Assembly (NCBI GenBank): GCA_964187785.1
Contig: OZ076420.1
Span: forward strand, 8,494,001 to 8,558,000
Reading direction: 5' to 3'
Length of the DNA: 64,000 bases
DNA from: Amphiscolops sp. MND2022
Lineage: Eukaryota
The position numbers and the translations under genes are program-made. Positions 2,014-62,859 of the stretch are shown here, piece after piece. Within the stretch, counting starts at the first letter, position 1. Each line of letters begins with the position of its first letter. The notes below the pieces were generated by a model. It was not told the origin of the DNA. It worked only from the letters and a program-made list of their open reading frames with translations, and searched no databases.

Positions 2014-2017
2014 GAAT

Positions 2018-2328
2018 TGATATACCAGATATCTATATGTTGCTTAATCTTATATCATTCCCCCAACCCCCGTATGTCTAGACTTTATAACAAATGCACT
2101 TCATTAATGTAACTGAATAATATTCTAGATGTAAACTCGATGTACCTACTTTATATTCTGTACGATGCATTTTGATTTAGAACACAACTTGAATTCATTC
2201 TACACCATCCAGTTGTCTTCGCTTAAGGCCTAATATCTGCAGCTCTATTAGTGTCTCTTAAAGTACTAACATCAAATGAACATTCTATCCATATCCCAAT
2301 AATCCCTAGTAAAAACACAAGTACATTA
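2018..2328 (+). repeat. 5' LTR of A-1 (TGATATACC...GTACATTA)
   Basis: Matches 20397-20707 with about 5 substitutions and 2 single-base indels (~98%). Confidence 0.95.
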
Positions 2329-2330
2329 AC

Positions 2331-2340
2331 TGGTGCGACC
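2331..2340 (+). promoter_or_regulatory. Putative primer-binding site TGGTGCGACC
   Basis: TGG starts 2 nt after the LTR end; the cognate tRNA was not identified. Confidence 0.55.
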
Positions 2341-2408
2341 ATCTCGTTTCTTTCCTTTTCTAAAACCAATTTTGTAATACATATTTTCTCCTCTTTCCCA
2401 AACTTTTC

Positions 2409-2612
2409 GGTACTAATCACCCAAAGTGATTCGACCTCGTAGTAGGTACAAACGCAATTCTTCTTCTGTACTAATCACACATTGTGGCTCGACCTAGTAG
2501 TCGGTACATCAAAACTTTCTGTACTAATCACCCTTTGTGATTCAGCTACGCGCTGGTACACTATTTTCTTCTGTACTAATCACCTTTTGTGATTCAGCTC
2601 CATGCTGGTACA
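2409..2612 (+). repeat. Four-unit (~52-58 bp period) structured leader array
   Basis: Units at 2409-2450, 2467-2508, 2520-2560 and 2572-2612 each read (T/G)GTAC-T-AATCAC-N5-GTGATT-CAGC/CGAC-N5-6-GCTG/GTCG-GTACA, with a few mismatches in units 1-2. Confidence 0.9.
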
Positions 2613-2750
2613 CCCGTTTCTTCTCTTATAGTCATTTTTCATATTGTAACTCCCTATTATACCTTCCTTTTCATTTTTGTCTCTCTTATTTTTCCAAACC
2701 ACATTTCTTCACCATAACTTCCTTCTTTTCACAATCCTCCATATTTTTTC

Positions 2751-2897
2751 ATGCCTTCTTTGAATGACTCCGTTTGTATTTGTTTAATTCTCCTCTACAT
2801 TTTTGGTCTTTGCGCAATTGTTTTGCTCCTTGTTGACAAATTCATTCTTCCTTTTATTCCACACGCTTTTGATCAATACCGAACATCATCACTCTAA
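2751..2897 (+). CDS. Small hydrophobic leader ORF a (48 aa, one TM-like segment)
   Basis: Manual translation: MPSLNDSVCICLILLYIFGLCAIVLLLVDKFILPFIPHAFDQYRTSSL*. Confidence 0.4.
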   Translation: MPSLNDSVCICLILLYIFGLCAIVLLLVDKFILPFIPHAFDQYRTSSL

Positions 2898-2906
2898 TAA
2901 TTATTT

Positions 2907-3020
2907 ATGTTCCTCACCGAAAATCTTGCCACTATTATTCTTTTCGTTTCCTATATCTTTGCCATGATGGTTTTTTTAATGCTTCTCATTGAAAAAATCG
3001 TTGAATCTCTTTTCAACTAA
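2907..3020 (+). CDS. Small hydrophobic leader ORF b (37 aa)
   Basis: MFLTENLATIILFVSYIFAMMVFLMLLIEKIVESLFN*; similar segment in ORF 162-350 (-) of the relative. Confidence 0.45.
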   Translation: MFLTENLATIILFVSYIFAMMVFLMLLIEKIVESLFN

Positions 3021-3137
3021 CTTCCTTTTCTTTCCCACTTTCCCTTTTTTTCTTTCCCTATCCCCTCCTTGATTTCTCCGCTTATTTTATTAACACCTTT
3101 CCTACCTTTAACACCATTCTCCTTTTCCCCAATTTGT

Positions 3138-3374
3138 ATGAAACTCCTCTTCCTTCACCCCACTCCCATCCTTGCTCTTTTCCAACTTCTTTTTCTTTCC
3201 CTTTTCCTCATAACTACATCCATATATTTTTATCCCTCTCTCTTCTACTTTTACACTTATCTTCGCCTCAAAAACCATCGCTATTTTCACCCTCCTCCTA
3301 CTGAACCATCTATTCACCCTGACGTTATTATGGATTGGATTTGGCTACATTTCAATCCTCATAAACACTCCTAA
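3138..3374 (+). CDS. Small hydrophobic leader ORF c (78 aa); its stop overlaps the gag ATG (TAATG)
   Basis: MKLLFLHPTPILALFQLLFLSLFLITTSIYFYPSLFYFYTYLRLK...; TAA at 3372-3374 and ATG at 3374-3376. Confidence 0.45.
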   Translation: MKLLFLHPTPILALFQLLFLSLFLITTSIYFYPSLFYFYTYLRLKNHRYFHPPPTEPSIHPDVIMDWIWLHFNPHKHS

Positions 3375-6300
3375 TGACTGATTCACAACTCCTTATCCCT
3401 CTTCCTTTCGCCTCAAACCCCTCCCAACGTATTACCCGTGATATTTCTCACACTCTTCTCCAATTTCTCAACAACCTTATCTATAATTCAACCACTCCTT
3501 TTCTTTTGAAACCTACCCGGAAGATATTTACACTACCCCATTAATTCGTGAACATCATGATTCTTATTTATAATATATTGACACCCATTCGCTCCTTCCA
3601 AATTCTGACGAACCTCCATTTTCTATTCTTTTCACTTCTCCCACAACTCACTCTGATACTTTTCAAAAAAATATCCATCCCGAAAATATTCAAATTCCAA
3701 TCGCCCATGTTTTTACAACTTTCCTAAACAATCTCCAAGAAAAAAATAACCTTTTACCTACACATGTTTTTAACCCTTCCTCCATTCAAGAACTTCTCCA
3801 GAAAGATTCTCTTTTTGACATTCCTAATATTGAACAATTTTGCACAGTTGAAAATATTCCTCACCATTGGCTTACCACCGATATACTTCAAATTCATCAA
3901 TTTCAATATCAATTTTTCCGAAATATTACCATCAATAAAAATACCAAAGAACAAATTCAAATATACTCCCTTTTTCTTCGAAAATTCTTCCGCCATAATT
4001 ACCAACTAGTTTGGCATTCAAAATTTCCAAATGCTTGCAAAAATTTTCCTCAACAATTTACTAATGATGAACTTCTACCTTTTCTCGATACTCTTGATAA
4101 CCAACATCCCCTTGTTTTATAATCTTCTTGATTTTCCTTCTTCTCATTTTGTATATCTTACCTATGACTCTAATAGTATTAACAAAAGCCTCAATCTTCC
4201 TCCTCCTGTTCGTCCTTATTTCCATCAATACAATACCCCTCCTGCGAATGAGACAATTTCTACAGTTTCTATTCAAAATCTCCCTTCCTCGTCCAATCCT
4301 GTGACAAATCCTACTTCATCCTTAACTCAACAAATTTCTCCTCCTACTTTTCAAAACACATCTTTACACCACATCAACCCTCCTTCGACTTCCCAAACTA
4401 CAACCATTAAAAACAATCCCCCTCTTTCTCATTCACCAAATCAATATACTGCCCCTTCTAACACTCCACCTGCTGCTATTAGTAATCCTATTCAACATTC
4501 AACTTTCCAAATTCCTCCATTAAACCCAATTCCACTTTCTTTAAATACTACTATTCCCACTCAATTTCTTTCTCAAAACCCTCCATCTTCTTCTACCCAA
4601 AATCATTCCAACTTTCAAACAACTTCTTCTACTACTCAATCTACCACATATAACCCTTATATTTCTCTTTACCCTACTTTTCAAAACTTCCCCACTACTT
4701 CTTTTCAACCCCCTCCAAATCCTCATAATACCCTTCCTCCTACTTCCACATATCTTTCAACCCTTCTTCCTCTTACCCTTCATTTCCTTTTCCAACCACT
4801 CCTTCTGTTCCTTTTGCTGCCCTCTCCGACCCTATTAAACTTTTTGATGGCTTAGATCATACTTATCCTCCAGAAAAATTCTTAGCCCACCTCAGTGCAC
4901 GTGTAACATTTCAACTTGGACCTCAACCTGTAGATATTCAATCATATTTAACTTGGCATTCTCGTCGAACGTCTCTCCTTTATTGTTCCCTCACAGGAAC
5001 TGCTTCCAATTGGTATGACCGTCTTCCACAAGTTTATAAAGATGATTGGTCATCTTTTCTTCAAATTTTTAAGAAACAATTTTACTCCCAAAAACACGCA
5101 TATCATGCTCAAATTGAAGCCCTTTCCCTTCTTGAAAAGGATAATGAAAATGTCCGTCACTTCGCTCTTAAAGTCGAAACCCTTGTAAAACAAGGTTGGT
5201 ACAATGAATATCCTTCAACGATTAATCTTAAATGTAATGAAATTTTTACTCGTGGTCTCCCCAAAAAATTAAAAGATTTCGCTAACAAACGTCAAGTTAA
5301 ACATATTTCAAGTTCATTAGAACCGTCAATCCCATTTCATTCTCTCGTTAATATGGTTGATTCCGAAGATCTTACTCTTGAAAAAATAAAAACTCAAGAA
5401 CTTTCCGTTGAAATTAATAATTTGTCTAATACCTTCCAACAGAATACAACAAATCTAGATTCTCCTCCAGAACCTCCACAAGTTCAAGTAATGGATCCTA
5501 ATAATAAATCAAAACCTCAATTCAAAAAAAATTGTTCATTTTGCCATAAAAATAACCACTCTGTTTCAACTTGTTTCCGCTGTCTTAATATGCTTAAAGA
5601 ATCAAAACCACAATCTAGATCTCCGACTCCCACATTTTATCAACATTTTAAAAATCCTTCCAATAAACTTCATTATTCTCGCCACCGTAGTCGAAGTTAT
5701 AGTAACCCTCCTCGCAAATCTTCTCGCGACACTCGATATCAATCTCGTTCCTATTTACGTTCACATTCACGTCCCCGTTACAATACTAAAACCCACTCCC
5801 GAACATATTCGCCTTATCACAACCGTGATAGATCTCGATATGATAAACATTATAATCATACTCCATATAAACCATATTCTTCTACACGCTCATATTATAA
5901 TTCTAATTCCTCCCGTAGTCCATCTAAATATTACCCGCGTTCTCGTGAACGTTCCTCAAATTTTAACACTTCTACTTTCAACAGATACAATTCTCCTTAT
6001 CGTCCTCCTTCAAAACAACGTAATGATCGCTATCGTAGTAGATCTCATTCAAACTCACACAACCATTCTCAAACCCAATATAAACCATCTATAAACCTTA
6101 CACATCCATCTACACCGCCTCCTCAAACAAACTCTCAAACAGAATCTATTTTTGAAATCAATATGTATCACCCTAATGTTTCCTCACCTCAATCTTCGTC
6201 CACTTCCACTGAATATGCTAACGCTATTACACCTTCCACTTGGTTCGTTAATTTATATATTTTCAAACCTAGTGAAGATACCTCTATCCCTTCTAAATTA

Positions 6301-7026
6301 AAACTCTTATTTCTCCTCGATAGTGGTGCATCCATTTGTGTTTTAAATTTACCCACTTTTACCATTTTAGCTGAACACTTCTTAAAATGTTCAACACATT
6401 CTCCATATCAAACTGAATACAAAACGTTAACTGTTGCCAATAAATCCGAAGTACCTATTCTTCATAATATAATACTTACACTCCATACCTCTCTTAATGG
6501 AAATACTCGTACCCTTGTTATTCCTTTTGCAGTCGCAAACATTAAATACAATATACTTGGAACTCCTTTCTTTGAAAAATATGTTAAAACTCTTAATATT
6601 GAAAACATTTCCCTCACATTTAATACACCACACGAATCTCGTATTAACACTCTCCCTTTTACAGCTCATAAAGAAAAAGATTATCCACCTTTTTCATATA
6701 TATACACAATTAATGTTAAAAACAAAATTTATTTTAAACCCAACGCCTCGCAACTTATTCATTTTCCTATTCAACCGACACTCCCTCTCACATTTAAAAC
6801 TTCCGATAATGAAGTTATATTTCCTTCTACACCTATCTATTTTTTAACACACGCTTCAATTCCACCTTTAATTTTCTTCAAGTATATCAAAATGTTAACA
6901 CTGAACCTTCAAACTGTTCTGTTATCATTCAAAATATTACACATAACTCTGCTACCCTTCCTCCTGGATACATTGGATATATTGAAGTTCCTGCCGCTAA
7001 TATTCAACCCCTTCACCATAAAGTAA
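3374..7026 (+). pseudogene. gag: gag-protease polyprotein of A-1 (frameshifts near 3505 and 4750, one stop near 3570)
   Basis: Capsid-like LLYCSLTGTASNWYDRLPQVYKDDWSSFLQIFKKQF (~4975-5090); CCHC knuckle CSFCHKNNHSVSTC at 5533; Arg/Ser/Tyr-rich tract ~5680-6075; protease FLLDSGAS (D at 6319) and ILGTPFF. Confidence 0.9.
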
Positions 7027-10000
7027 ATGATGTAAACTCTTTTATCCATACCGTATTTCATTCTTATTATACCGATCTTTCTGAACCAAAACCTCCCCGT
7101 AGACGTTCTTCTCTCCGCAATCCTCACGTTGAAATAAACAATTTGCAGCCTTCCCAAGTTTTAACACGACCTCTTCCACCATTACCATATTCACCTGATA
7201 CCAAACAATTTCTTAACAAAGTTAAATTTCAATATTCAGATGTTTCTGATGAAGAATATTTACAACTTTGTTCCATCCTTGTCAAATATCGAACATGCTA
7301 TGCAACACATAAAAATGATGTTGGCCAAATAGCTACCCCTTTTAGAATTCGCCTTAAACCCAAAGCTAAACTTCAAACTCAACGTCCTACCAAAGTTCCT
7401 ATTCATTATAGAGAAAAACTGAAAAAACTCCTTGATGAACTAGAAAAACACAATATTATTCGCCAAATTGGTTCCACCACCTCTGACAAATCCATCTATG
7501 GTACCACGTTTTTAAATCCTCTCATTATTATCCCCAAAGGAGATACTATTAAAGTTGTTTTAGACGCACGTCATCTTAACTCTAATACCGATCGATCTTT
7601 TGAATCTTGGCCTATTGAAACTTTAGCTCCCCAACTTGCACGCGCTAACAAAAAATTCAAATCCGCTATTGATCTTATGTATGCTTATGCCCACGCTCCC
7701 TTAGATGAAGAAACTATTACTTTAACCAGCTTCTCCTCCGGTGACAAACTTTACGCTTTTATTCGTGGATTTTATGGTCTTAAAGGCCTACCTAATTTTT
7801 TTACCAAACAAATGTATTCATTTTTTCAAAAACTTGTTGACCAAGGCTTTTCATTGGTTTATATCGATGACATTCTTCTTCTCGCCCACACCAAACCTCA
7901 TATGTTAAATTTAATTGAACAACTTCACCAAATTTGTCAAACAAATAATCTTAAAATTGCTCCTGAAAAATCCTTCTATATTCTTCTCACTGTCAAATTT
8001 CTCGGACATGAAATTGGCAATAACACCATTAAACCTATTTCCTCCAAAATTGATGCTATTCACCAATTAAAAACACCTACCTCTAAAACTGAATTAATGC
8101 GCTTCATTGGATCAATGAATTTTTACTCTAAATTTATCAATAAACTCCATATTTCTTTGAAACCTTTTTACACTCTTCTCCATGATGATATTTCATTTGA
8201 ATGGACTCCTGATTTAGACAAACTCTTTAATCAAATTAAACTTTCTCTTTCCAAAGATGCAGAACTTGCTATTCCCAACACTACCCATCCATTCTACATA
8301 ACAGTAGACGCCTCTTTAATAGGTTTAGGCGCAGTTTTATTTCAACCAAACTCCAAAAACAAAATGCAAATAATTTCATATAACTCCCGTATTTTAACAA
8401 CCCAAGAACAAAAACTCTCTACTTATGACAGAGAACTTTGTGCTATTACTTTTGCTCTTTCACAATACGAATTTATTATTATTGGCTCCAAATTTCCTAT
8501 AACTGTTTTTACAGATCATAACCCCATACTTTTCCTCTTCACACGCAAAGGCAACCTAACTCCTAGACAATATAAAGCTCAAATGTTATTAACCAAATTT
8601 TCAAACTTGCAAATCATTCATACCGCTGGTACAAACCTTACTGTAGCTGATATGCTCAGTAGAGATTTTTCAATTATCAATGCTAAAACTTGCCAACTTC
8701 ACCATAAAACTCTTCCTCCTCATATTGATTTCTTACAACTCAAACAAAATAATATTTTGAAACCTATTCATTATCTCGTAAAACATGAAGATGTACTCCC
8801 TACACAAAAAAATGATTCACACTTAATCTTAGCCGATTATGGTGATGATCAATTTACACTCCGTATCCAAGATAAAGGCAATATTGTTAAATATACTCCT
8901 CTTGACTCCTTTTCTTTTCAATCTGTTTTCTCATTTTTAAATAAATACAAAAATCCTGTCAAAAACAAATTTAAAACTCTCCTCCAAGAAAACCCTCTTT
9001 TAAACGAAACTGATTTATATGACACAGACGATCCTGTTCTTAAACGAATTCCTCAACAATATTCACAAACATATCATGAACTTCACACCCTTTTTACAGA
9101 AGTACAACATCATTATTTTAACGACATTAACCTGTCACAAGATATCCTAACCAACTTTATAAACTCCCCTCCTATTATTAATCATACTCTTCATAGTAAT
9201 GCTATAACACCAACTTCCCCAAAAACCATAAATACTCAATCTTTGCCATTTTTTGACCCTTCCTTCTTTGCCCACCGTAAGGCATTTGACAATTTTTTCC
9301 TTCCTTCTGACACTTTCTTAACATTACCCATCTTACTTCAAGCTCAAAAGGATGATCCTGTTCTTTCTACAGTATATACATGGTTAAAACAAAAACAGAG
9401 ACCTCACTCTTTGACTCCAAGTATTAAAGCAAATTCCTTTTTATATACATATTACAAACAATTCCAACATTTATATATAGACCCAAACTCTCACCTCATA
9501 CAATATTATACCCCCAATTCCCGAATTTTTGAAGAAATTTTTAATAAAACTCAACCCTCTATTAACCAGACACGTATATGTTTACCATTTAAACTTTTCT
9601 ATGCCGCATTTAGTAAAACACATTCTCATGGCCATTCCGGTGAAAAACTCTCCATTAAAACATTTAATCAATTTTATTTTATTCCTCACCTTTATGGTTC
9701 TCAATCTTCATTCATGACTGCATTGACTGCCAGACAAAAAAGCATTTTCCAATTAAACCACAAAACATTTCTCCTCCTCTTCCGTTTTATGAAAGCGCTA
9801 CTCACTTTAATTACCGAATTTCAATGGACACTAAAGGTCCTATTGCCCCATCTTCTCAAAACAACTCCTATATCTTTGTTATTATTGACGCATTTAGTCA
9901 TTTCGTCGTTACTAACCCAGCTCTTAACATTACTTCTAAAAATGCAATTCAAACTCTTCTCCATCATTGGATCACAAAGTTCGGTCCCTCTCAGTATCTT

Positions 10001-11284
10001 GTTACAGATCGAGGTACTGAATATAATAATCAAGATATGGCTCATCTCTGTCCTCTCTTTCATATTAACCATTCACCTCGAACTCCTTATTCACCATGGA
10101 CCAACGGTTTGGTCGAAGTCCAAAACCGAAATCTTGGAACTCATCTCCGGATATTTTTACAAAACCCTCCTACTAATTGGTCATTTCAAACTCAAATGTA
10201 CGCATATGCTCATAACACAACACCTCTCTCTCAACTTAAACTTTCTCCATACCAGATTGTTTTCCATACTCATCCTCGTATTCCTCTCACCTTTTCCCTT
10301 AATCTACCTCGAGATGCTCAAAAAAATTGTATTGCAACTTATTGCGAATCTCTTTCTCCTCATTCACATTATGGTACTCAAGATCTTAACCCCTTTTTCC
10401 ATTCTCTTCTTGACAAACCAATCTCCTCATGGCTTTTAGCAGCTGAAACTGCAATGTTAGAAATATATTCGACTGTTCACCGCCATTTAAACCATAAACT
10501 CAATTCCCAAAGTTCTACTTTTGAAACAACTCACTTGAAACAACTACCTCTTAATACCTTCGTAATCCATACAAATTTTAAACCCATTAATTTTTCAAAA
10601 AAGCTCAAACCTCTCCGAATTTGCCCATATAAAATACTTAAACATCTTTCTGAAGTAACATATGAACTCTTTTCTCAAGATGGCTCTACATTTCAAACTC
10701 ATCGAAATCATATTCTACCATATTACCCTAAAGAACCTATAATTTTCCCATACATTAAACACTACCATTCTACCCCTTCTCTTATCAACAACCCTGATAC
10801 TGACTCTTACCAAGATACCTTTTCTCATTTCTCCTCCTTAGATTTACAACACCATTCTAATTCTCCTCAAACTCCTCCTTCCTCAAAATATAAACAATTT
10901 AACAGCTCTCCCCCTTCCATTCCTAACTACCAAAACCTTTCACATTATTCTTCCTTACAAGATCAATTAAACCATACTCCTTCCTCTACCAACAATCCTT
11001 TACAATCTTCTTCCTTTCAAGATAATCTTGATACTACAATAGACTCTCACGATTCGGATTTTGAAATGCTTCCAAATCCTATTTATTATTCAAACTCCTC
11101 AACTAATTCTTTCCCTCAGTTCTTCGCTCGTGTTGCTGATTCTCCTGATATTTCTTCCTCTCCTTCACTTGAATCCCCAAGTGAATCAACTTACCAACGA
11201 GCTCCTCATTCCCCATACAATCTACGTTCACTCCCCCTTCGACATTATAATTCATCCAAACCAAACATTAGCTTCCCTCCTTGA
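6798..11284 (+). pseudogene. pol: pol (RT, RNase H, integrase) of A-1, frameshift near 9690
   Basis: VVLDARHLN, IDLMYAY, YIDD (7860), KFLGH, TVDAS and RELCA; HSHGH...CIDC zinc domain; MDTKGP, IDAFS, TDRGTE and NGLVEVQNR (DDE core). Confidence 0.95.
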
Positions 11285-11644
11285 TTAATATTCATTTTTA
11301 ATTGGATTTTCTGCCTCCTATTGTCCTCAGTCTAGACTTTTCTTAAGTTTGACATATGACAATCTAATTAACCACTTTCTTCTAGTTCTATCTCTCCATT
11401 CTATCTCAACAAACACAAGCTGAACAGTTGCTTTCATTGAAACTTGCTGTCATACGAAAACATAAAGAATCTAATCTTCAACTCTTTTTCTTTCGACAAC
11501 ATAAAGAATCTAATCTTCAACTCTTTTTCTTTAATTCATTCATCATTGTATCTACTTCCAATATTAATCTCTTCTCATCCCTTCCTATTTAATAGTCATC
11601 TTTGAAAATCTTCCTTTGTTTCCATCCTGGATCTCACTGTCTTT

Positions 11645-12967
11645 TTGTCCGACTCCTCCTCTCAAACCTCTTCTACCGTTTCAACTGATACTATACCTTC
11701 TTCACAAACTTCTGTACCAACTCAACAACCTTATTTAAATTCTATCCCAATCACCCCTTCTTTAGATACCACCCCTGTTAATACTCCAACCCACACTCCT
11801 CTCCAAACTTCTGTACCTCAACAAACTCAGACTTCTTTAACTCTTCCACTTTCTGATACAGAATTTCCTTTTGACATCAACCCTACTCATTCTCCACCTC
11901 CCTCTTCTTTTCATATTCTTGATCCGAGTGACATTAACCCTCCTCTTCTTCGGAATATTAATAAACCCACTCTTCCTCGATTAAAACTTATCCCTACTTC
12001 TATAAAATCTTTTCGCCGTCGCTCCCAATTAGATAATTCTCTTTCTATTCCTCCACCTTGTTCTCATACCTCTACTCAGTTTTCATTACCTCCTCCTAAA
12101 TCTCTTAAAATTCCCGCACTTGAATCTCTTGACTCACTCCAGAGAAAATCAGATTTAAGTGAAATCGATTCAGCTACTTCCTCTCTTCTTTACCCACGTC
12201 TTCCGCCTTCAATTTCTGCTTCTAAATATACAACTTCTTCCTTAGATAATCTTCTTGACACTTCCTCTGAATCTACTATTCGCCATCCACTTCGCCACAG
12301 ATATAATCTTCGTAATAATCGTCGTCCTTCTCCTTCCCTTGCAAGTACTAACTCTTCTCTTTTACGCCACCACGCTCAATCTCTTTCTTCAGACTCTCTT
12401 TCAAACGCAGAAAACACTCCTACTTCTGGAATCGACACTGTCTTTTCCCAACGTTCCTCTATTTCTTCTTATACTCATACTGGTCACCTTTTCTCTCGCC
12501 CAACTTCTCAAAATCCCAGTATTCTTTCATCTGACGATCACTTACTTAACATTGATCTTACCACTGATCAATATTCTACTCCTCCTACACCTAATCGTGT
12601 CGATTATCCTCTAATTGTAAATCACACACTTGTTAACAGCCCCCGCCAAGATCCTCGCTTTCTTTATCTTGCCACTCACAAACTCAATAACAATCCTCAT
12701 ATTTCCGACACACGCCGTCGTAAAGAATTTCTCCGCCTCGAAGAAACAAATTTAGAACTTAAATTTGAAATTAACGTCAAATTCCAAAACTTAAGTCCTC
12801 ATCTCATTCCTTCACATACAACAGTAAATTTTAAATCTCTTCCCCATCCTTTTATTGCCACCAATCTTAGTCTTTTTGTTAGTGATCATCCACCATTTCG
12901 TCTTTTACACGGTTCTATTACTTTTCTTAACACCCTCACCTTTTTGAAATACACTGCCCAATTTTAA
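11645..12967 (+). CDS. Accessory ORF4, Ser/Pro/Thr-rich 440 aa, function unknown (no ATG seen; TTG start in track)
   Basis: Long open frame between integrase and env; contains RHRYNLRNNRR and a less biased C-terminal ~110 aa. Confidence 0.6.
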   Translation: MSDSSSQTSSTVSTDTIPSSQTSVPTQQPYLNSIPITPSLDTTPVNTPTHTPLQTSVPQQTQTSLTLPLSDTEFPFDINPTHSPPPSSFHILDPSDINPPLLRNINKPTLPRLKLIPTSIKSFRRRSQLDNSLSIPPPCSHTSTQFSLPPPKSLKIPALESLDSLQRKSDLSEIDSATSSLLYPRLPPSISASKYTTSSLDNLLDTSSESTIRHPLRHRYNLRNNRRPSPSLASTNSSLLRHHAQSLSSDSLSNAENTPTSGIDTVFSQRSSISSYTHTGHLFSRPTSQNPSILSSDDHLLNIDLTTDQYSTPPTPNRVDYPLIVNHTLVNSPRQDPRFLYLATHKLNNNPHISDTRRRKEFLRLEETNLELKFEINVKFQNLSPHLIPSHTTVNFKSLPHPFIATNLSLFVSDHPPFRLLHGSITFLNTLTFLKYTAQF

Positions 12968-12968
12968 A

Positions 12969-15740
12969 ATGTTCTCCCTTTTCTTTCACTCACTTTATTA
13001 TTTCCTTTCTCCCCTTCTCTTGGTAGTTTCTCGAACTACTCCATCGTCCGATCATGTAGATCCAAATGACCCTCATATTTCAGACCTTTAAGTCTCTCAT
13101 TATGATTGCTCTAAACAACACAATTTAAGACAGTTTAGTCTTACTCGAGTCCAACCATGCGTTCAAGCCCCCTCTGCTTTTGAAACAACACGCGCTATTG
13201 TAAATGTTTTTGTTCGTGCTAAAGCTAAACGCCTTCGAGCTTGGACCTGTGAAGCCTACGTAAAACGCGAAAAATTTGTTTGTGCCCAATCTGATTACAA
13301 ATATCGTCGTCATGATCGTACGGACTATCACCGAAATACCATGGAACGTCCTCGTACTCTTGACCCAATAGAATGTAAACACGCTATTCGTCATTTAAAC
13401 GGAACTCATAATCCTCAACTCGATGCTTTTAATTGTTCTAATTCCTTTACCTTTTTTAATGATATTCAAAAACAACGCCTTTTAGAAACAAAACAACCTC
13501 CTTTTCGTATTACTAAACTCAATACTTATCACTATGGTGCTTTTGCTTGGATCACCAATTCACAATTAGTATTAAACTCAACTCTGAAAGAAAAAGCTGT
13601 TTGCTGGGACCGCTATGAATATATTATTGAAAAAGATAGTTGGTCTCTCATCGTAAAAGAAATTGAAATTACTTATGATGACAAAGAAAATAAACTAATA
13701 TATCATGGACATACTTTACCTTGTCTCCACGACGATGGTTTCTGTAAACCAACAATATTAACACCTTTCACCATTGTTTGGTTTCCTGAAGACCTTTGTT
13801 TAATTTTCTCCATTCATTCCTTTATTGGTAGAATGTCTAAACTTAATAATCGTTATTGGCTCGAAACTGAACATTTTTTTAATAATCATTCCTCTACTGT
13901 GTCAACCAATACTCCTTATCATGATACCAAATCCCAAACACGTCTTTCTCGCTTTGAAATCTTCCCTGAAAACAAAATGTTTTGTATTAAACCTACTCCT
14001 CTACATCTTACACAATATCCTGACCTGTTCATAACATATAACGAAGATTTTAATATGCAAACTGGTAAACCTAATCCTCTTCAACTTCCACAAGACGAAC
14101 AATACAACCAACTAACTACCCAGTTAATATCTGGAAGATTAATTCATACTAAAGATAAACTTCTTTTCCCTGCTCTAAATTCTTCAAATAACTTTGCCAC
14201 CATTGATTACGAAGCTCATATTAACACTAAACTCGACTATTCAATAAATCATGTATTTAAAAGCATGTCTGTTGCTGAACTTAACACTCTTCACACTATA
14301 TGTGAAGTCGAACGTACTCAACTTTTAACCATACTCGCTATGTCTGTTAAAAACCCACAATTTGCTGGTTTCCTCTTAACCCAAAATCGTAGCAATTTTT
14401 TATATGTTGAAGGCTCTACTGCCTGGTTATACGACTGTCCTCATCACCTTTCACCCCTTTACATTGCTGACCAATGTTATGACAAGACTCCTGTCAATTA
14501 TCTTGATACTGTCATGTATGTAGATCCTATTACACGTCAGACCTTTGAATATGCTAACCAAATACCTTGTGAAAATAATCCTCAAAATGTTATTTCTCTT
14601 GACCCAGACACTGATCAATATTACGTTTTAACTCCTCAACCTATTAAAAAAGATCCCCCTCTTCTTTTTGAACCAACTCAAATTCAAACCGCTATCAGCT
14701 CGAATACTTTCACCGCTCAGGACGCTGGCATTTATTCACAAAAAGAATTAAAACATTTTTGGAATCGAGTTTTATTTACTAAACACTCTGACCATACTCT
14801 TCAGCTTCTTGGAAAAGCTATCAGCTATGAATTTATGAATCAACATTCTGACAATTCCTTTCCTAGTTATCCCTATCGATCACTCAGAATTGGTCTTCAT
14901 GACTACATGTTAAATCTGACTCCATTTTTCTCTCCTGATTGGTTTACTGATGCTTTTATAAAACTTTTTGGCTATCCATGCTATATTTTAACCCAATGTG
15001 GAATATACTTCTCTACTGCTCTCTTCCTACAATTCGCTTTCAATACACTCTTTAGTATTTACCGTTCATTCACTGTTCGAAATCTACTTAAAAAACAAAT
15101 TTCCGTAATAACTGCCTTAGGATTTGGTTTCTTTGGCACTATTACCAAAACCATGATGACTGCTATGATTAAATCAACTCATTCATCATCAGATTCTGAC
15201 GATTCTGATTCCCCTCATTCACCATTAGCAAAAAATAATACCACATCTTCCAGTCCTAAACCTCGTCCTCCTAAATATCGTACTAATATTAAAACAAAAC
15301 TTCCTAATTTAAAAAACAAAAATCCCATGCCAAGATCTTCACCAAACTCTTCACCTATTAAACCCCTCTCTTCCTCGGTATTTCATGCTCCTCCCATTAA
15401 CCCTACACAACCCCCTAACACCGAAGATTATTCACCTCCACCTCCAAATTATAATTCTCACCTTTCACCTCATAACAATCTCTCTTTACAACACTCCCAA
15501 TTACCTTAATTATCTTCTTCTCCATATTTTCATAATTCTCCTCTTCCTGATGACACTAATTGTGATAACTCTTCTACTGATTCCCCCATTCATAATCTCT
15601 GGCAATCTACAAAAATTTACCCTCCTACTCCGCCACCAATTAAAACTAATGACATTCCGTTAACTCCTGTCAATAATATTTTCGACCCACCTGACAGTCC
15701 TGTCAAAGTTTATTTTTCTTGTCGCTTCCCTCCAGAATAA
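12969..15740 (+). pseudogene. env: env-like class III fusion glycoprotein (herpes gB / chuvirus G-like), in-frame TAA at 13089 and 15507
   Basis: Signal-like N-terminus MFSLFFHSLYYFLSPLLLVV; HYDC; WTCEAYVKREKFVC; DPIECKHAI; ICEVERTQLLTILAMSVKNPQFAGFLLTQNRSNFLYVEGSTAWLYDC (gB central-helix pattern); C-terminal hydrophobic segments and a long Pro/Ser tail. Confidence 0.75.
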
Positions 15741-16073
15741 TATATTTACCTTTAACTTTTTTGATTCTCACTCTGAATCTTAAATACCCCAACTTAATTA
15801 AACTTACAGACTAATATTGTACCTCTTTTGTATAATAATTATAGTTCTTTTAAAACTACTTCCTTTTTCATTTGTCATCATTCTTGCTTTCACTCTGGTC
15901 ACTCCTACTCACCTTCGCCAAAAAATTTTCTTGAACTTTTCTATACATCTTACTTTCATCTACACTCATATAATCTTTTCTAAAAACGCACATCCGTATA
16001 ACTTTACCCAAAACGCACATTCGTATAATTTTCACCCTTTGAACTATTCATTTTTACTTTCTCTCCAAACAAA

Positions 16074-17549
16074 ATGGCCACTATCAATCCTGATGAAGAA
16101 CTTCTTTCTAGTATCGCATCTTTGTCACCCCCTCTTTCTCTTAAATCTGGTACGCTTGATCTTCCTCTTGCAAATGATTCCCTTCCTCTTAATTCTAACA
16201 CTACTCCAGAACCTACTGTAAATAGTAATTCCACCACTTCTCAATCTAATAAACCATCTTCTAATAATCTTAAATCTCGTCATTCTCCCACTCTGCCTCA
16301 AAATAAACTTCATATTACTATTGATAATCATCCCATTCCTCCTAAAAAGAAATATAATATTCTCGAAGATCCTGTCTTCATTGATTCTGGTATTCTACCT
16401 CCAACTCTTCACCCATTAAAAACTCCTACTCAATCTAATTCAATGACTGACGAATTCCTCCGTATTCATCCTAATTTTAAAGCTAACCTCCCTTCATTGT
16501 ACATGACTCCTACTTCTTATAAATTTCGCTTTCCTCAAGATCGTAGTTTTGACCACTATGTTGCTTATGCTTCCAAAAATTTACCACAACTCGCCTATTG
16601 GCAAAACAATCGTGTTCGTTTCTTCCAATTTCATTTCAACCTTCTTAAACCAACCCAACATGATTTAAATACCAACCCCAATGATATCACCACAACTCCT
16701 TCTGTTAAAAAACTTCACAATCGAACCTATCAACTTTTTCTTGAACAAAAACATCCTCAAAACTTCATCTTCCGAAATCATAAATTTACTTCTCCATTTT
16801 CATATCATTCTCACTATTCTTTGAACCACCTCTTCACTATTGGAACAATTCGTAACTATGATCCTGTCAAACAATATTTTGTTCTCTCTTCCTATCACGA
16901 TCCTACTCGTCCGTTATTTGTTCCTAAAGAAGCACTTAATGTCAATGATGATTTTCTCCTTCCTACACACATACCTAACACTGTTCCAAATTTCTTCCCA
17001 AAAATGAATAAATTAGTAGAAACGCCTCCTGATGATCATTCTCGTTCACTCTATACTGCATTAGTTCACAAACACTATTCACTTGCACAACTCAATTTTA
17101 TTATTGCAAAACTTTCCTCTTTTATTCTCAAAAAACAATACAAACATTTCTCACTAAACATCTCTGATGAAATTCTCCAAACTCTTCCTAAACATACTCC
17201 TCCTAATACTACATCTGAACCTTCTCACACTACAGCAATTCCTCCTCCATCTACTTCGTATGTTCTTCAAACTGCCAATCCTAATGTTTGCATCAATTCC
17301 TTCTCTTGTCCCACAGACAAATTCGTATCGGAAATACTTACTCTTCTCCGTCCACATGTTGAAATTGCTCCTAATACTGATCCTTTTGTTATTTTAAACC
17401 ACATCTTTGACACCTTCCGTAATCTTCAATCTCTACTCCAACTGCACTCAACTGATATTCAAAATTTAACACTCTCTACAATCCATGTTAACTATTTTCT
17501 TAAAAAACTTGTTTTACTTGAAACTCCTCCTCAGTTCACTTCCTATTAA
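16074..17549 (+). CDS. Accessory ORF5, 491 aa, intact, function unknown
   Basis: ATG-initiated open frame; homologues at 61381-62859 (-) and 22480-22990 (+). Confidence 0.85.
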   Translation: MATINPDEELLSSIASLSPPLSLKSGTLDLPLANDSLPLNSNTTPEPTVNSNSTTSQSNKPSSNNLKSRHSPTLPQNKLHITIDNHPIPPKKKYNILEDPVFIDSGILPPTLHPLKTPTQSNSMTDEFLRIHPNFKANLPSLYMTPTSYKFRFPQDRSFDHYVAYASKNLPQLAYWQNNRVRFFQFHFNLLKPTQHDLNTNPNDITTTPSVKKLHNRTYQLFLEQKHPQNFIFRNHKFTSPFSYHSHYSLNHLFTIGTIRNYDPVKQYFVLSSYHDPTRPLFVPKEALNVNDDFLLPTHIPNTVPNFFPKMNKLVETPPDDHSRSLYTALVHKHYSLAQLNFIIAKLSSFILKKQYKHFSLNISDEILQTLPKHTPPNTTSEPSHTTAIPPPSTSYVLQTANPNVCINSFSCPTDKFVSEILTLLRPHVEIAPNTDPFVILNHIFDTFRNLQSLLQLHSTDIQNLTLSTIHVNYFLKKLVLLETPPQFTSY

Positions 17550-18181
17550 ACTTCTCTCTAATTGGTAAACACTTTTCCTTTTTAATTCCCTTCTCAAAAA
17601 TTTCTTTTTTTCCAATCAATTTGATAACACAATTTCATCTCCTCTCTCTTATCTTTTTCAACCTCTTATCCAATTAACATATTTATTACATCTTTCACTC
17701 CTTATTAACATATATCATCTCTCTTTCTTCCCCTTTTGACACTTCTTCCTATTGTTTCCTTTATTCTTTGAGAAATTCACGTGACATTTTCACTTGTTCT
17801 TTTAATAAACATTGACACTATACTCTTATTTTCTTTAGCTTCTCCAACTCTCTCAAGATCACTACTTTCTTAAACATCAAATTTTCAGTCTTCACCTTCG
17901 TCACACTTATACTATTAGGTATAATATATTTCAAATACCTTTCAACATTTCCTTCATCACACTTATACTATTAGGTATAATATATTTCAAATATCTTTCA
18001 ACATTTTTAACACAAAGAAGTATTTTCACTCACTTCCTTTCTTTTTTCACATTTTCCATTCCATCACATCTTCCTCTTTCAGAATCAATAAATTCACCAC
18101 AACACTCTCTCTATATTAAATTGCTCCACATACTATAAAAATAAATCATAATACAAATTCATCAATCATTTTGTTTCAGTA

Positions 18182-19082
18182 ATGACATCTTATCCTCCTT
18201 CAACATTGGCATATCCTCTTCTCAATCAACTTCTGGACTCTTCGCTGCCATTTCCTGTTTCTTCCACTTCTTCGACATTCACTCTTCCAACTGTTGCCCC
18301 TACATCTTCATCACTCCCCACTTCTTCATCATCCGCCTCACCCACTGTCGTATCTGTGACATCATCCAATGTTGCATCTGTAACATCTGTTTCACTAACA
18401 CCCATTTCTTCTTTCGTCAATACTACAGCTTCAAATACATCTGCTTCAACTACATCTCCGGTACTTTCTTCTTCTATTTCGTCTCCAGTTTCTTCGATCG
18501 AGTCTTCTTTCTTCCTCCATCCCAAAGATGCTGTTGCCACTTCTCCACATTTCCAACAATATTCAGCCGTCCGCCAATTAACTCGTGATCTTCAACAGAA
18601 AAAACCCAAGCATCCCAGACGTCCACCGTTGCCTTCCGATGTAATTGGTAAACCTGTTCGTCGACTGGTCCACACAGTGGCCTTCCAACAAAAGTTGAAC
18701 CAGTATATAGATGCACTCAAATTGTATGAAAAACACATCGATGAACTTATTGAACAAACAACTTTTGAACTGAATAAGCTTAATAATAAACCCCCCTTCC
18801 AAATTGAGAAAATTCAAAACGCCTCAGCCCATACAATTATCCCCTCTCTCTATTCAAATCCCCTCCCATAATTGCTATATTCATTATAATTGCTTCTCCT
18901 ATAATACTCCCCATTGTTCACATGTTCCTGTCAACTATGCTATTCATTCACATTTTCCTCCCCATTCACCTTCCCCGGCCTTAATTCCCATTCGCATTGA
19001 AGCCATAACCCCCACTTTGCAACCCCCCTCCCCTTTAAATGATTTGGACCCATTGGTAACTTCGTTAAATGATGTTGACTAA
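18182..19082 (+). pseudogene. Accessory ORF6 (Ser/Thr-rich N-terminus, coiled-coil-like core, Cys/His segment), frameshift near 18805
   Basis: Track ORFs 18182-18871 and 18804-19082 together align with 59640-60514 (-); relic homologue at ~31060-31450. Confidence 0.8.
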
Positions 19083-20396
19083 AGAGTCTCTGCTTAAATA
19101 ATCTTTTGAATTTTCTATATACAAATCTTGAACCTGTTAACTTTGTCTGTTTTCTAACAAATACCTTACCCCCCATGTTTTTCTTGACCCTTATCATCTC
19201 TATTTTTGTGCTATACATTCCATTTTTAGTAATTCTTTCAAAATTTTCCATCTAAAATTTCTAATTTTCTTTGCCGAAATCTGCTTGTAACTTCGGTTCT
19301 ACCCAATCAGTTTTTCCAAATTCTATCTGAGCATGATGCGTTTGACCTACTTACTCTTACGTGCTGGAGCTATCCGTTTTTTTCCCTTTTCTTAACCATT
19401 AATAAACTTTTTAAACCATAATTCCATTTTTTTAACCTTCTTCCCACCAAATTTTTTGACTTTACTCCTCTTTAACTTCAATTCAAAAAAATCTCTCTTT
19501 TTTAATCTTCCTCCTACTAAATTGTATGTTCAAAATTACGTACCTCGGTATCTAACTCTTCTTCACTTGCTTTTTGATCAACTGAATTTGCGTGATCAAA
19601 AATTTTTTCTCTTTTCTCAATTGAAAAAATACCTGCCACGTGACATAATTTTGAACACATATTGACTCATATGGCTTTGTTTTCGCTTCCACTTTGTTTT
19701 TTTTCACGCCGCCTTTTTTGCTTTGAAATTCTGACATCTCATTTTAGTTAATTAAAAAGGCCAATAAGACAAACGCTTAGTTCGAAACAACTAAGAATCT
19801 TAGGCTTCCTGCATGAATTTCTTTGTCAATCCAGCTGTCATTTTTTTGCCCTATTTGACTTTTCACGCTTTCCTCCTTGTCGATCAAATCTTTTTACCGC
19901 CTCGGAAGATACTAAAGTTACTAACTCATTCGTCCTGTATAAACTTTTCATGAAATCTGAAACAATTCTGCTGAATTCGTAACAAACATGAACATGTCGA
20001 TTTTAAAAAAAATTGAACTTAAAATAAACCAAAAATTTCTTTCTCTCTTCTCTCATGTATTCCTGACCTATTAATTAAAGTGAATACCTCAATCCCTTGA
20101 AGATACTTTCATCTACACTAAACATCGAAAAATGCCCGTAACTCACGAAAGGAAAGATATGAAGACAACTCTATAATTAAAAATTTTTTTTTGTTTTATT
20201 ATTATTCACAAATATATGAAGACAACTTTTCAAACGAAAACCCCTATTGCAAGATTATTAAAATTCCTCCTTTTTCGCTCTCTGAACCTATTGAACTAAA
20301 CTCCAACCATTTTTAATGGAACCCCAATTTTTAACATACACTTTAACAATAAATCCAAAATTTTTTTCTTTTCTCTTTTTTCAAAACCCGGTCGGA

Positions 20397-20707
20397 TTAT
20401 ATACCAGATATCTATATGTTGCTTAATCTTATATCATTCCCCCAACCCCCCGTATGTCTAGACTTTATAGCAAATGCACTTCATTAATGTAACTGATTAT
20501 TATTCTAGATGTAAACTCGATGTACCTACTTTATATTCTGTACGATGCATTTTGATTTAGAACACAACTTGAATTCATTCTACACATCCAGTTGTCTTCG
20601 CTTAAGGCCTAATATCTGCAGCTCTATTAGTGTCTCTTAAAGTACTAACATCAAATGAACATTCTATCCATATCCCAATAATCCCTAGTAAAAACACAAG
20701 TACTTTA
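20397..20707 (+). repeat. 3' LTR of A-1
   Basis: Copy of 2018-2328 followed by the GAAT TSD. Confidence 0.95.
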
Positions 20708-21399: not shown

Positions 21400-23074
21400 G
21401 ATGTCATGCGCCAACACCTTGAACAAGACTCTAAATATCATACTCATCGCCTCTCTCGTTTCGAAGTTTACTCAGAACACAAACTATTTTGTAATGAACC
21501 CACACCATTATACTCAACTCAAAACACAGACATTTTTAAAACCTATAAAGAGGTATTCTGTATGCATTCTGGTCAACGTAATCCTCTTCATCTACCTCAA
21601 AATGGAGACTTTAATCACTTTTCGACTCAACTCGTTAATTGAAAACTGATGCAAAATGACCAACACAAACTCTTCCTTCCTTCAGTAAAATCTTCTAATA
21701 CATCTGCAACTACTGGTTACGAAGCTCATGGAAATACAAAAAGCTACTTTTTTATGAACCAACTTTTTGTAATAATGACTGTCTCTGAACGTAAGACCCT
21801 TCACACCAAATATGAAGTTGTGCGTTTTCACAAAATTCCTATTAACTATCATGATACGGTCATGTATATAGACTCTATTACACGACAAACATTTGAACAT
21901 ACCATCATCATATCCCTTGTGAAATCAAACCTCAAATTGTTATTGCTTTTGCTCGCGATTTCGGCCAAGATTATGTTTTAACACCTTAACACCTTAAAGA
22001 CCCTCGATTTTAGTTGAAAAAAAACTAATTCCTACTGCCATTAGCGCAAACATATTCACTGCTCAAGATGCAGACGTTTATTCACAAAAAGAACCTAAAC
22101 AATTCTGGAGTCGTGTTCTTATTACTCCGATATTAATTTGCAACTCCTTGGGAATGCTAAGAGCTATGAACTGAGTAAACAGTCTCCGAATTGCTTCCTA
22201 AGAATCCTTATCAATCACTCCGAATAGGCTTTCATAGTTAAATGTTAAACCTAACTCCCCTTTTAACAAACGAAAGGTTTGCTGCGGGTTTCATTACACG
22301 CTTTAGTTATCCATGCTCTAGTGTAACCCAATATGGAATCGTTTTTCCCGCAGCACGATGCCGTTCCAACAGTTCGAGGCCAATTGGGGAATTTTTGCCA
22401 CTTGCTCAAGATCTATAGTCCACTTTCTCGTAACGTCTTTTTAAAATACAAAACTCAAAGTTATACTGATGACTGGAAATTTACTCCTCAAAATGTCGAA
22501 GAAGAGCTACTTTCCAGTATTGCGTCTCTGTCACCGACACTTTCCCCAACGTCTGCTGTTCTTGAAATTACCAGTGTTTCTCAGGATTCATCCACCTCAT
22601 GGTAACGCAACTTCTGAAACTACAATCTCTACTATTTCTGAAACTAATCAACAAAGTAATCCCACGTATACTCCTCTTTTGACAGCAATTTCTACAACTA
22701 ACCATAAACCTACGTCTTCCACTCTTAACACTCCTCATTCATCAACACCTCCGCCTAAAAGTCTCCATGTCACAATTGATAATGATGTAATACCTCAAAA
22801 GAAGAAAAAGGAGATGCTCAATGCTCCTTCTTTCAACAACTCCGGAATTTTGCCTCATTCTCAGTTTTTAGGTAACCTCTTTTCATTGTATCTGAAACTT
22901 CACTCGTACACATTTCGGGCTCCCACGGATCAAAATCTTAATCATTACGTCGCATATGCATCAAAACAACTAACTCATCAGTAACAAACAGGACTTGTTA
23001 TTCGGCCAATGACATTTTGTCCTTTACCAAATGACTTACTCAACCTATTTCATTTATTTACTATTGACACATGC
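21400..23074 (+). pseudogene. env: Old family-A relic: internally deleted env plus ORF5 N-terminus
   Basis: RLSRFEVYSEHKLFC, YEAHGNTK and HDTVMYIDSITRQTFE match env; EEELLSSIASLSP and HYVAYASK match ORF5. Confidence 0.85.
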
Positions 23075-61380: not shown

Positions 61381-62859
61381 CTAAGATGAAGTGAATTGAG
61401 GAGGAGTTTCAAGTAAAACAAGTTTATTAAGAAAGTCGTTACCATGAATTGGAGAGAGTGTCAAATTTTGAATATCTGTTGAATGAAGTTGAAGTAAAGA
61501 TTGGAGATTACGGAACGTGTCAAAAATGTGGTTTAAAATAACAAAAGGATCGGAATTAGGAGCAATTTCAACATGAGGACGGAGGAGAGTAAGAATTTCT
61601 GACACGAATTTGTAAGTAGGACAGGAGAAGGAGTTGATACAAACGTTAGGATTTGCAGTTTGGAGAACATAAGAAGTGGATCGAGGAGGGATTGTTGAAG
61701 AAGGAGCCTGAGAAGGTTCAGATACAGTATTAGGAGGAGCATGTGTAGGAAGAGACTGAAAAATTTCATCTGAGACATTCAAAGAGAAGTATTTATATTG
61801 TTTTTTCCTATGAGGAGAGTTTTGCAATAATGAAATTGAGTTGGGCGAGAGAATAATGTTTGTGAATTAGAGCTGTATATAGGGAGCGGGAATGATCATC
61901 AAGAGGGGTTTCCACTAATTTGTTCATTTTCGGAAAGAAATCGGGAACGGCATTAGGGATGTGGGTTGGAAGAAGAAAATCATCATTAACATTAAGAGCT
62001 TCTTGAGGAACGAATAATGGACGAGTAGGGTCATGGTATGACGAGAGAATAAAATACTGTTTAACAGGGTCATAATTACGAATTGTTCCGATTGTGAAGA
62101 GATGGTTTAAGGAATAGTGAGAGTGGTATGAAAGCGGGGAAGTAAATTTATGATTTTGAAAAATGAAATTTTCGGGGTGTTTTTGTTCGAGAAAGAGTTG
62201 ATAAGTCTGATGGTGAAGTTTTTTAACAGAAGGAGTTGTGGTTATATCATTAGGATTAGTATTTAAATCATTGTGAGTCGGTTTAAGAAAATTGAATTGG
62301 AATTGAAAGAAACGAATACGATTATTTTGCCAGATGGCGAGCTGTGATAAGTTTTTGGAAGCATATGCAACATAGTGGTCACAATTACAATCTTGAGGGA
62401 AGCGAAATTTATAACTAGTAGGGGTCATATATAGTGAAGGAAGGTTAGCTCTAAAATTCGGATGGGTACGGAATAATTCATCTGTCATCGTATTGGATTG
62501 AGAAGTAGTTTTTAATGGATGAAGAGTAGGGGGTAAGATACCAGAATCAATGAAGACAGGATCTTCAAGAATATTGTATTTCTTTTTAGGAGGAATTGGA
62601 TGATTATTGATAGTAATATGAAGATTATTTGGAGGCGGGTAGGAGAGTGGCGAGTTTTAAGATTAGCAGAGGGTGGTTAATTAAGAGATTGAGAAGTAGT
62701 AGAATTGTCATTTACAGTACGTTCTGGAGTATTGTTAGTATCAAGAGGAAGTGAATCATTGACAAGGGGAATATCAAAAGTACCAGATTTGAGAGAAAGA
62801 GGGGGCGACAAGGAAGCGATGCTTGACAGAAGTTCTTCCTCAGGATTTATAGTTACCCT
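61381..62859 (-). pseudogene. ORF5 of A-2 (start ATG>AGG, frameshifts)
   Basis: The 226-aa core (61808-62488) is roughly 85-90% identical by eye to A-1 ORF5. Confidence 0.85.

What the first reader, a model, noticed from the sequence alone, without database searches (positions are those of the whole stretch)
16074..17549. ORF5: intact orphan protein under visible purifying selection
Between A-1 and A-2, the segment HYSLNHLFTIGTIRNYDPVKQYF...ALNVND differs mainly at third positions (TCT/TCC, TTG/TTA, CAC/CAT, ACT/ACA, ATT/ATC, AAC/AAT, GAT/GAC, GTC/GTT, CAA/CAG), while the flanking spacers are barely alignable. A third, older homologue exists at 22480-22990. GTIRNYDPVKQYFVL...PLFVPKEAL loosely resembles a small beta-barrel (Tudor/Sm-like); this is speculative. 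Accessory proteins of mobile elements often counter host silencing (inference).
Basis: partly seen in the sequence, partly recalled or inferred. Interest (0 to 1): 0.7.

Follow-up and report, generated by a model that had tools for sequence, protein, structure and literature searches.

The report
Orphan regulator gene in enveloped retrotransposons
A large, virus-like jumping gene that is abundant in this genome carries an extra gene with no named relative, whose core is kept as strictly as the reverse transcriptase and which likely encodes a protein that binds the element's own RNA or DNA to control its expression.

Summary
ORF5 (491 aa) lies right after env in an 18.7-kb Ty3/gypsy-type LTR element. 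dN/dS against the second window copy is 0.096 (CI 0.065-0.133). Against other genomic copies the core gives about 0.023, like reverse transcriptase. Three high-copy subfamilies (33-35% identical) and a decayed fourth keep it after env (64 of 66 loci). Distant homologues (down to ~30%) lack close copies in this genome. Selection acted while the element replicated: the second window copy is broken, and the open frame here fits chance.

No Pfam, PDB or BFVD match was found. The Tudor-like barrel is plausible but unproven (Foldseek E 7-8). A splice-donor-like site follows the stop in 36 of 37 copies. Best guess (0.4): an element-specific nucleic-acid-binding regulator working like Rev, CERV, Tas or VANC. 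A broad piRNA/RNAi suppressor is less likely; ORF6 is the fast-changing gene.

Orphan accessory genes under purifying selection are known in complex retroelements, so this is a new family of a known kind.

The parts
16074..17549 (+). ORF5, 491-aa orphan accessory protein; no transmembrane stretch (max Kyte-Doolittle 19-mer 1.06)
16344..16355 (+). basic cluster KKKY (aa 91-94), NLS-like by recalled consensus; similar clusters in subfamilies 2 and 3, P0021, P0027; absent in P0023-P0025
16350..17144 (+). conserved core (aa 93-357); dN/dS 0.023; 28 residues invariant over 9 lineages
16809..16958 (+). most conserved segment (aa 246-295), predicted beta-rich, possible SH3/Tudor-like barrel; invariant Y248 G257 R260 N261 D263 K266 R279 P280 V283 P284 E286
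17274..17546 (+). C-terminal helical domain (aa 401-491); dN/dS 0.025 within the subfamily, about 20% identity between subfamilies, absent in P0194
17565..18179 (+). predicted intron: donor-like G|GTAA 15 nt after the ORF5 stop, pyrimidine-YAG acceptor 2 nt before the ORF6 ATG
   Evidence: splicing itself not shown
18182..18871 (+). ORF6, fast-evolving accessory ORF, not detectably homologous between subfamilies
12969..15740 (+). env, Pfam PF24664 Monjiviricetes_fusion (E 1.6e-22); two stops in this copy
11606..12967 (+). ORF3 between pol and env, orphan; C-terminal half kept in all three subfamilies (33-39%)
3374..11284 (+). gag-pol (N-terminal domain, capsid, CCHC-like knuckle, RT, RNase H, integrase with SH3-like tail), broken by frameshifts and a stop
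2409..2612 (+). four tandem double-hairpin units in the 5' leader with compensatory changes; candidate packaging or protein-binding element
   Evidence: (z -2.71)
2331..2340 (+). primer-binding-site-like TGG motif after the 5' LTR (tRNA not identified)
2018..2328 (+). 5' LTR (TG...TA), preceded by 4-bp target-site duplication GAAT
20397..20707 (+). 3' LTR, 98% identical to the 5' LTR, followed by GAAT
22492..22972 (+). decayed third ORF5 copy (N-terminal third), after an env remnant at 21448-22339
61381..62859 (-). ORF5 of element A-2, broken (start lost, one stop, two frameshifts) yet mostly synonymous differences

Best explanation
ORF5 is a long-kept accessory gene of a high-copy, envelope-bearing Ty3/gypsy-type LTR element, under strong purifying selection, and its soluble protein likely binds the element's own RNA or DNA to promote its expression, most likely the making or export of unspliced RNA. 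Shown: position after env in all subfamilies examined, RT-level constraint on the core, divergence that follows pol, no transmembrane stretch, conserved splice-like signals around the next spacer, and subfamily-specific tandem repeats in the leader. Inferred: translation from a subgenomic mRNA (internal promoter or splicing), nuclear entry through the basic cluster, nucleic-acid binding through a predicted SH3-like barrel with invariant Arg/Lys, and lock-and-key divergence with a cognate target.
For: Core dN/dS 0.023-0.024, against RT 0.020-0.023, capsid 0.031-0.034, env ectodomain 0.028-0.032, integrase 0.05 and ORF6 0.29 for the same copies. Within subfamilies the ratio is 0.06-0.14 for pairs with dS above 0.08 and 0.17-0.88 for the closest pairs, as expected when selection acts during replication. 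An env remnant lies upstream in 64 of 66 ORF5 loci examined, and three subfamilies share one gene order. Between subfamilies the core is 38-50% identical while RT is 70-79%, with the same closest pair; this fits co-evolution with an element-specific partner (inference). A donor-like GGTAA lies within 80 nt of the stop in 36 of 37 intact copies, against 1 of 370 background bins. A TAG/CAG acceptor sits 2 nt before the ORF6 ATG in 20 of 22 subfamily-1 copies. If these sites are used, genomic RNA carries an intron, which Rev- or CERV-type proteins deal with (PMC10309623, abstract and section 15 read). Leader repeats fold with compensatory changes and differ between subfamilies. R260, K266 and R279 are invariant.
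Against: There is no direct functional evidence. The fold is unresolved (pLDDT 37 full length, 55 core) and no fold match is significant. The basic cluster is missing in P0023-P0025. Subfamily 2 and 3 proteins are mildly acidic (pI 6.2-6.4), unlike typical RNA binders. No conserved export signal was seen by eye in the alignment. No conserved acceptor lies in the spacer upstream of ORF5 in subfamily 1. No spliced genomic copy matched the junction pattern. The copies are not independent: the donor count rests on about four positions in three lineages. Leader repeats could simply be the Gag packaging signal.
Confidence: 0.4

Rival explanations
1. ORF5 is a structural or assembly cofactor of the particle (matrix- or tegument-like) that links cores to the envelope protein or helps budding.
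For: It is always next to env (64 of 66 loci), is constrained like capsid and env, and has helical segments that could oligomerise.
Against: Gag already carries a conserved N-terminal domain that could serve as matrix (inference). There is no transmembrane stretch, no match in BFVD and no relative in viral contigs.
Confidence: 0.2
2. ORF5 is a broad suppressor of host silencing (piRNA/RNAi), for example a Tudor-like decoy for methylated PIWI proteins or histones; this is the first reader's idea.
For: Two of three Foldseek PDB rows are Tudor domains (UvrD C-terminal 6yi2, PHF1 6wav; E 7.1 and 8.0). The beta-strand pattern resembles, by eye, Tudor-like hits in this genome. The family reached very high copy number (6849 candidates).
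Against: The core shows no sign of fast change (0.023), whereas ORF6 does. Aromatic residues at the positions I recall as the cage vary across 9 lineages. No Tudor family was hit in Pfam for 15 members. HH-align scored below shuffled controls, with low power. The passages read in PMC6719617 state that TE anti-silencing factors described so far act narrowly.
Confidence: 0.15
3. ORF5 is an enzyme of unrecognised fold that modifies or protects element nucleic acid, like the enzymatic extra ORFs of rotifer elements.
For: Invariant polar residues (D99, S167, N235, T239, S240, R260, D263, E286). Precedent in PMC5408684 (abstract read).
Against: No invariant His or Cys set, and no Pfam or PDB sequence hit.
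Confidence: 0.12
4. ORF5 is a captured host-gene fragment, or this copy has been co-opted by the host.
For: The frame is open in an element whose gag-pol and env are broken.
Against: An open frame has about a 1-in-3 chance at this break density (my estimate). The homologues examined sit in element context. No named host protein appears among the listed hits.
Confidence: 0.03

Closest known systems
Accessory ORFs of fish foamy-like endogenous retroviruses (PMC5210030; passages read)
   Same: Elements over 17 kb with orphan ORFs between pol and env and downstream of env, dN/dS 0.1-0.26 for most, no domain match, no transmembrane motifs, function unknown.
   Different: Here Pol is closest to Ty3 among solved structures and env is PF24664-type. 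The ORF5 core is under tighter constraint (0.023). No homology was seen, but no direct comparison with those ORFs was run.
CERV of C. elegans Cer1 (PMC10309623; abstract and section 15 read)
   Same: A large novel protein of an LTR retrotransposon with splice signals, needed for export of unspliced RNA; the working model for ORF5.
   Different: CERV comes from a spliced mRNA shown by experiment and has a cysteine loop and a G-protein-like domain. ORF5 has no invariant cysteines, and its mRNA and localisation are untested.
Env-carrying Ty3/gypsy 'ancient errantiviruses' (PMC13524379; abstract, first parts of sections 5 and 6 read, supplements searched for host names only)
   Same: gag-pol-env order, multi-copy, invertebrate-type LTR elements with a viral fusion protein.
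   Different: The parts read do not describe extra ORFs; this element adds ORF3, ORF5 and ORF6. Whether this lineage is in their set was not tested.
VANC anti-silencing proteins of Arabidopsis VANDAL transposons (PMC6719617; passages read)
   Same: Accessory protein acting only on its own family through tandem motifs; ORF5 elements have subfamily-specific tandem leader repeats.
   Different: VANC belongs to plant DNA transposons and acts on DNA methylation. No homology or activity was shown for ORF5.
Foamy virus Tas/Bet and the Tor env internal promoter (PMC5210030 passages; PMC4402516 abstract and section 18 read)
   Same: Genes downstream of env or pol expressed from an internal promoter or by splicing.
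   Different: No promoter or transcript was mapped here, and there is no sequence similarity in Pfam.

Membership tests
Ty3/gypsy LTR retrotransposon (host element) | Two LTRs with a short target-site duplication and a primer-binding site | tested here: met
   LTRs 98% identical, 4-bp GAAT duplication, TGG motif after the 5' LTR; termini are TG...TA rather than TG...CA
Ty3/gypsy LTR retrotransposon (host element) | gag followed by pol in the order RT, RNase H, integrase | tested here: met
   Pfam order and Retrotrans_gag hit; best PDB match is Ty3 Gag-Pol, E 3.5e-48
Ty3/gypsy LTR retrotransposon (host element) | Placement within the clade in an RT tree | not tested
Env-carrying errantivirus-like elements | Viral fusion glycoprotein ORF after pol | tested here: met
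   PF24664, E 1.6e-22 and 6.3e-25 in two subfamilies
Env-carrying errantivirus-like elements | Env of F type or gB type by structure | tested here: inconclusive
   No PDB sequence match for env; env was not folded
Tudor / Royal-family methyl reader | Five-stranded SH3-like barrel | tested here: inconclusive
   Strands predicted at about aa 247-290 with pLDDT 45-58; Foldseek Tudor rows at E 7-8; not listed by VIA
Tudor / Royal-family methyl reader | Conserved aromatic cage | tested here: inconclusive
   Positions 253-255 and 274-276 vary over 9 lineages, while Y248, Y/F262 and F/Y269 are kept. The cage mapping is recalled and the model is weak; leans against.
Tudor / Royal-family methyl reader | Sequence-profile similarity to Tudor families | tested here: not met
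   No Tudor family in Pfam scans; none of the 20 fetched PF21743 loci or 3 PF18104 loci is ORF5
Rev/CERV/Tas-type regulators (functional class) | Expressed from a spliced or internally promoted subgenomic mRNA | tested here: inconclusive
   Conserved donor- and acceptor-like sites downstream; none conserved upstream in subfamily 1; no transcript data
Rev/CERV/Tas-type regulators (functional class) | Nuclear localisation and binding to cognate RNA or DNA | not testable with these tools
   Only a partly conserved basic cluster and invariant Arg/Lys
Rev/CERV/Tas-type regulators (functional class) | Homology to a described retroviral regulator | tested here: not met
   No Pfam or PDB match; the claim is 'works like', not membership
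VANC-type sequence-specific anti-silencing factor | Removes silencing marks only from cognate elements through tandem motifs | not testable with these tools
   Subfamily-specific tandem leader units exist; activity unknown

The most novel reading that the evidence does not exclude
ORF5 founds a new family of retroelement regulators with a new SH3-like-barrel-plus-helices architecture. It recognises subfamily-specific tandem RNA hairpins or LTR sequence, an independently evolved Rev/RRE- or VANC-like lock-and-key system, and is expressed with a swappable ORF6 from one spliced subgenomic mRNA. This would make these gypsy elements fully 'complex retrovirus'-like.
Probability: 0.2. Interest if true: 0.75.

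Novelty: new member of a known kind. Interest (0 to 1): 0.42.

Why it matters
Only a few accessory proteins of LTR retrotransposons have a known job. This one is constrained as tightly as reverse transcriptase and kept across lineages 20-30% apart in RT, so it probably performs a step these abundant elements cannot skip. Its function would show how non-retroviral elements solve regulated expression or host silencing. The natural subfamilies give ready specificity controls (cognate against non-cognate leader or LTR).

Full report
Setting. The window is part of a 1.07-Gb genome of 1929 contigs. ORF5 lies in element A-1, window 2018-20707: two LTRs 98% alike, a 4-bp GAAT duplication, gag-pol with RT, RNase H and integrase, an orphan ORF3, an env with Pfam PF24664 (E 1.6e-22), ORF5 and ORF6. 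Pol of a sister subfamily is closest to Ty3 among solved structures. A-1 is broken: at least 5 frameshifts and 3 stops in gag-pol and env.

Observation. ORF5 is open for 491 codons. Against the A-2 copy, 484 codons were compared and 7 dropped. Changes fall 47/24/152 on codon positions 1/2/3, and dN/dS is 0.096 by NG86 (bootstrap 0.065-0.133), 0.112 by LWL85 and 0.080 by YN00. A neutral simulation with the same mutation spectrum never exceeded 96 third-position changes in 1000 runs. The third copy at 22492-22972 is real but covers only the N-terminal third. Three corrections apply. A-2's ORF5 is broken. The first 230 bases of the upstream 'spacer' are the env tail. The open frame in A-1 is compatible with chance (about 1 in 3 from the break density, my estimate).

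Family. A search of the genome scored the best 150 of 6849 candidates, at 90-100% identity. Distant queries revealed a second and a third high-copy subfamily (102 and 139 scored matches) and a decayed fourth. Full-length identity between the window protein and subfamilies 2 and 3 is 33-35%. An env remnant lies upstream in 64 of the 66 loci examined, the window's own included. Stretches from two copies each of subfamilies 1, 2 and 3 show the same gene order. Protein searches gave 29 hits, then 125 with a profile, and 598 cluster representatives, mostly fragments, all unnamed in the rows listed. P0023, P0027 and P0194 have no close copy in this genome (best 50%, 48% and 33%). P0194 heads its own multi-copy family. 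The family is therefore old and probably not confined to one species (inference).

Selection. I used 37 intact copies; 29 broken or partial loci were left out, so the set is biased towards intact frames. Among them, dN/dS is 0.06-0.14 for pairs with dS above 0.08 and 0.17-0.88 for the closest pairs. This is the pattern of selection during element replication followed by neutral decay. For the same pairs of copies the ORF5 core gives 0.023-0.024, RT 0.020-0.023, capsid 0.031-0.034, env ectodomain 0.028-0.032, integrase 0.050-0.053 and ORF6 0.29. Between subfamilies the core is 38-50% identical and RT 70-79%, with subfamilies 2 and 3 closest in both. ORF6 is not detectably shared. ORF5 thus behaves as a vertically inherited, essential-like gene, and ORF6 as the fast, exchangeable one.

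Protein anatomy. A low-complexity N-terminus is followed by a basic cluster at aa 91-94, a core at aa 93-357 with 28 residues invariant over 9 lineages, a variable linker and a helical C-terminal domain that P0194 lacks. There is no transmembrane stretch. AlphaFold places beta strands there in both runs, but confidence is low (mean pLDDT 37 and 55). Foldseek returned three PDB rows, two of them Tudor domains, at E 7.1 and 8.0 with probability 0.02. BFVD and VIA gave nothing significant. Pfam and PDB sequence searches were blank. A profile comparison with Tudor-like domains from this genome was negative but underpowered. Aromatic residues at the loop positions I recall as the methyl-binding cage vary, while R260, K266 and R279 are invariant. 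An SH3-like barrel is plausible; a methyl reader is not supported.

Expression signals. A donor-like GGTAA lies within 80 nt after the ORF5 stop in 36 of 37 intact copies, against 1 of 370 background bins, at different offsets in three subfamilies. The copies are related, so this is about four independent positions. A TAG or CAG acceptor stands 2 nt before the ORF6 start in 20 of 22 subfamily-1 copies. Acceptor-like sites were also found before a downstream ORF in 4 of 7 and 4 of 8 copies of subfamilies 2 and 3. No acceptor is conserved in the spacer upstream of ORF5 in subfamily 1, so an internal promoter, as shown for Tor env (PMC4402516, section 18 read), is possible. No spliced genomic copy matched a junction pattern. 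The 5' leader holds four tandem double hairpins (six in L057), with z -2.71 and compensatory changes in 2 of 14 pairs; the other subfamilies have different tandem units.

Mechanism. I favour an element-specific nucleic-acid-binding regulator (0.4). It would be made from a subgenomic mRNA, enter the nucleus and promote transcription or export of unspliced RNA, as CERV does for Cer1 (PMC10309623, abstract and section 15 read). A VANC-like, family-specific anti-silencing role (PMC6719617, passages read) falls in the same class. All functional steps are inferred. Against it: weak fold evidence, a basic cluster missing in three lineages, mildly acidic subfamily 2 and 3 proteins, and no transcript data. 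Rivals are a particle or assembly cofactor (0.2), a broad silencing suppressor (0.15), a new enzyme (0.12) and host capture or co-option (0.03).

Comparison and novelty. Fish foamy-like ERVs over 17 kb carry orphan ORFs in the same positions, most with dN/dS 0.1-0.26 (PMC5210030, passages read). Extra ORFs downstream of env are a reviewed feature (PMC6431247, passages; PMC7264820 and PMC5408684, abstracts). Env-carrying gypsy elements are widespread (PMC13524379: abstract, first parts of sections 5 and 6, and supplements searched for five host names only; whether this lineage is listed there is open). PMC11673190 (first third) and PMC12440569 (abstract) were read and do not bear on ORF5. Nine paper searches listed no description of this family. 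The scan's notes gave no sequence look-alike. Note e1-9852443 describes a similar unnamed accessory gene in this genome, whose identity I could not test. Note e1-8577441 describes a gene-rich relative in another genome and led me to PMC13524379. Verdict: a real, new protein family of a known kind, with unusually strong constraint and a testable but unproven mechanism; interest 0.42.

Noticed in passing
window 2409-2612; L057:4461-4761: Four to six tandem double-hairpin units in the 5' leader with compensatory changes; subfamilies 2 and 3 carry different tandem units. Likely packaging or protein-binding elements.
   Followed up: partly
window 17565-18179: Predicted intron between the ORF5 stop and the ORF6 start; donor- and acceptor-like sites recur in three subfamilies with different spacer sequences.
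   Followed up: partly
window 18182-18871; L056:2580-3056; L117:1690-2142: ORF6 is fast-evolving (dN/dS 0.29-0.37) and non-homologous between subfamilies; a better candidate for a host-conflict gene.
   Followed up: partly
window 11606-12967: ORF3 between pol and env is a second orphan under purifying selection (0.07-0.14); its C-terminal half is kept across subfamilies.
   Followed up: partly
window about 2752-3020: A short, very hydrophobic frame, read by eye and interrupted by stops, lies before gag; possibly a small membrane-protein gene.
   Followed up: no
window 2018-2328 and 20397-20707; L057/L059; L060/L062: Subfamily-1 LTRs end in TA rather than CA, with 4-bp target-site duplications; subfamilies 2 and 3 end in CA.
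   Followed up: partly
window 15192-15740: The env cytoplasmic tail is long, Pro/Ser-rich, holds a PPxY-like motif (label recalled) and is under purifying selection (about 0.2).
   Followed up: no
window 15983-16030: A CpG-containing motif (AACGCAC-like) is duplicated just upstream of the ORF5 start and recurs in other copies in a G-poor spacer; possible promoter element.
   Followed up: no
L060/L062 and L057/L059 flanks: One copy is inserted in a long tandem array with a period of about 212 bp whose unit resembles a tRNA arm by eye; another sits in a shorter tandem repeat.
   Followed up: no
L118-L137: Other repeated sequences in this genome encode a PTM/DIR17-like Tudor domain (below the Pfam cut-off) at the end of an ORF; unrelated to ORF5.
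   Followed up: no
window 23689-27349 and 49648-54109: Two recent tandem duplications (1.8 kb at 99%, 2.2 kb at 98%); the second lies in a decayed minus-strand gypsy-like element at about 39000-55000.
   Followed up: no
window 2001-20000 and 58001-64000: Extreme strand bias (GC skew down to -0.7 on the coding strand) marks both elements.
   Followed up: no
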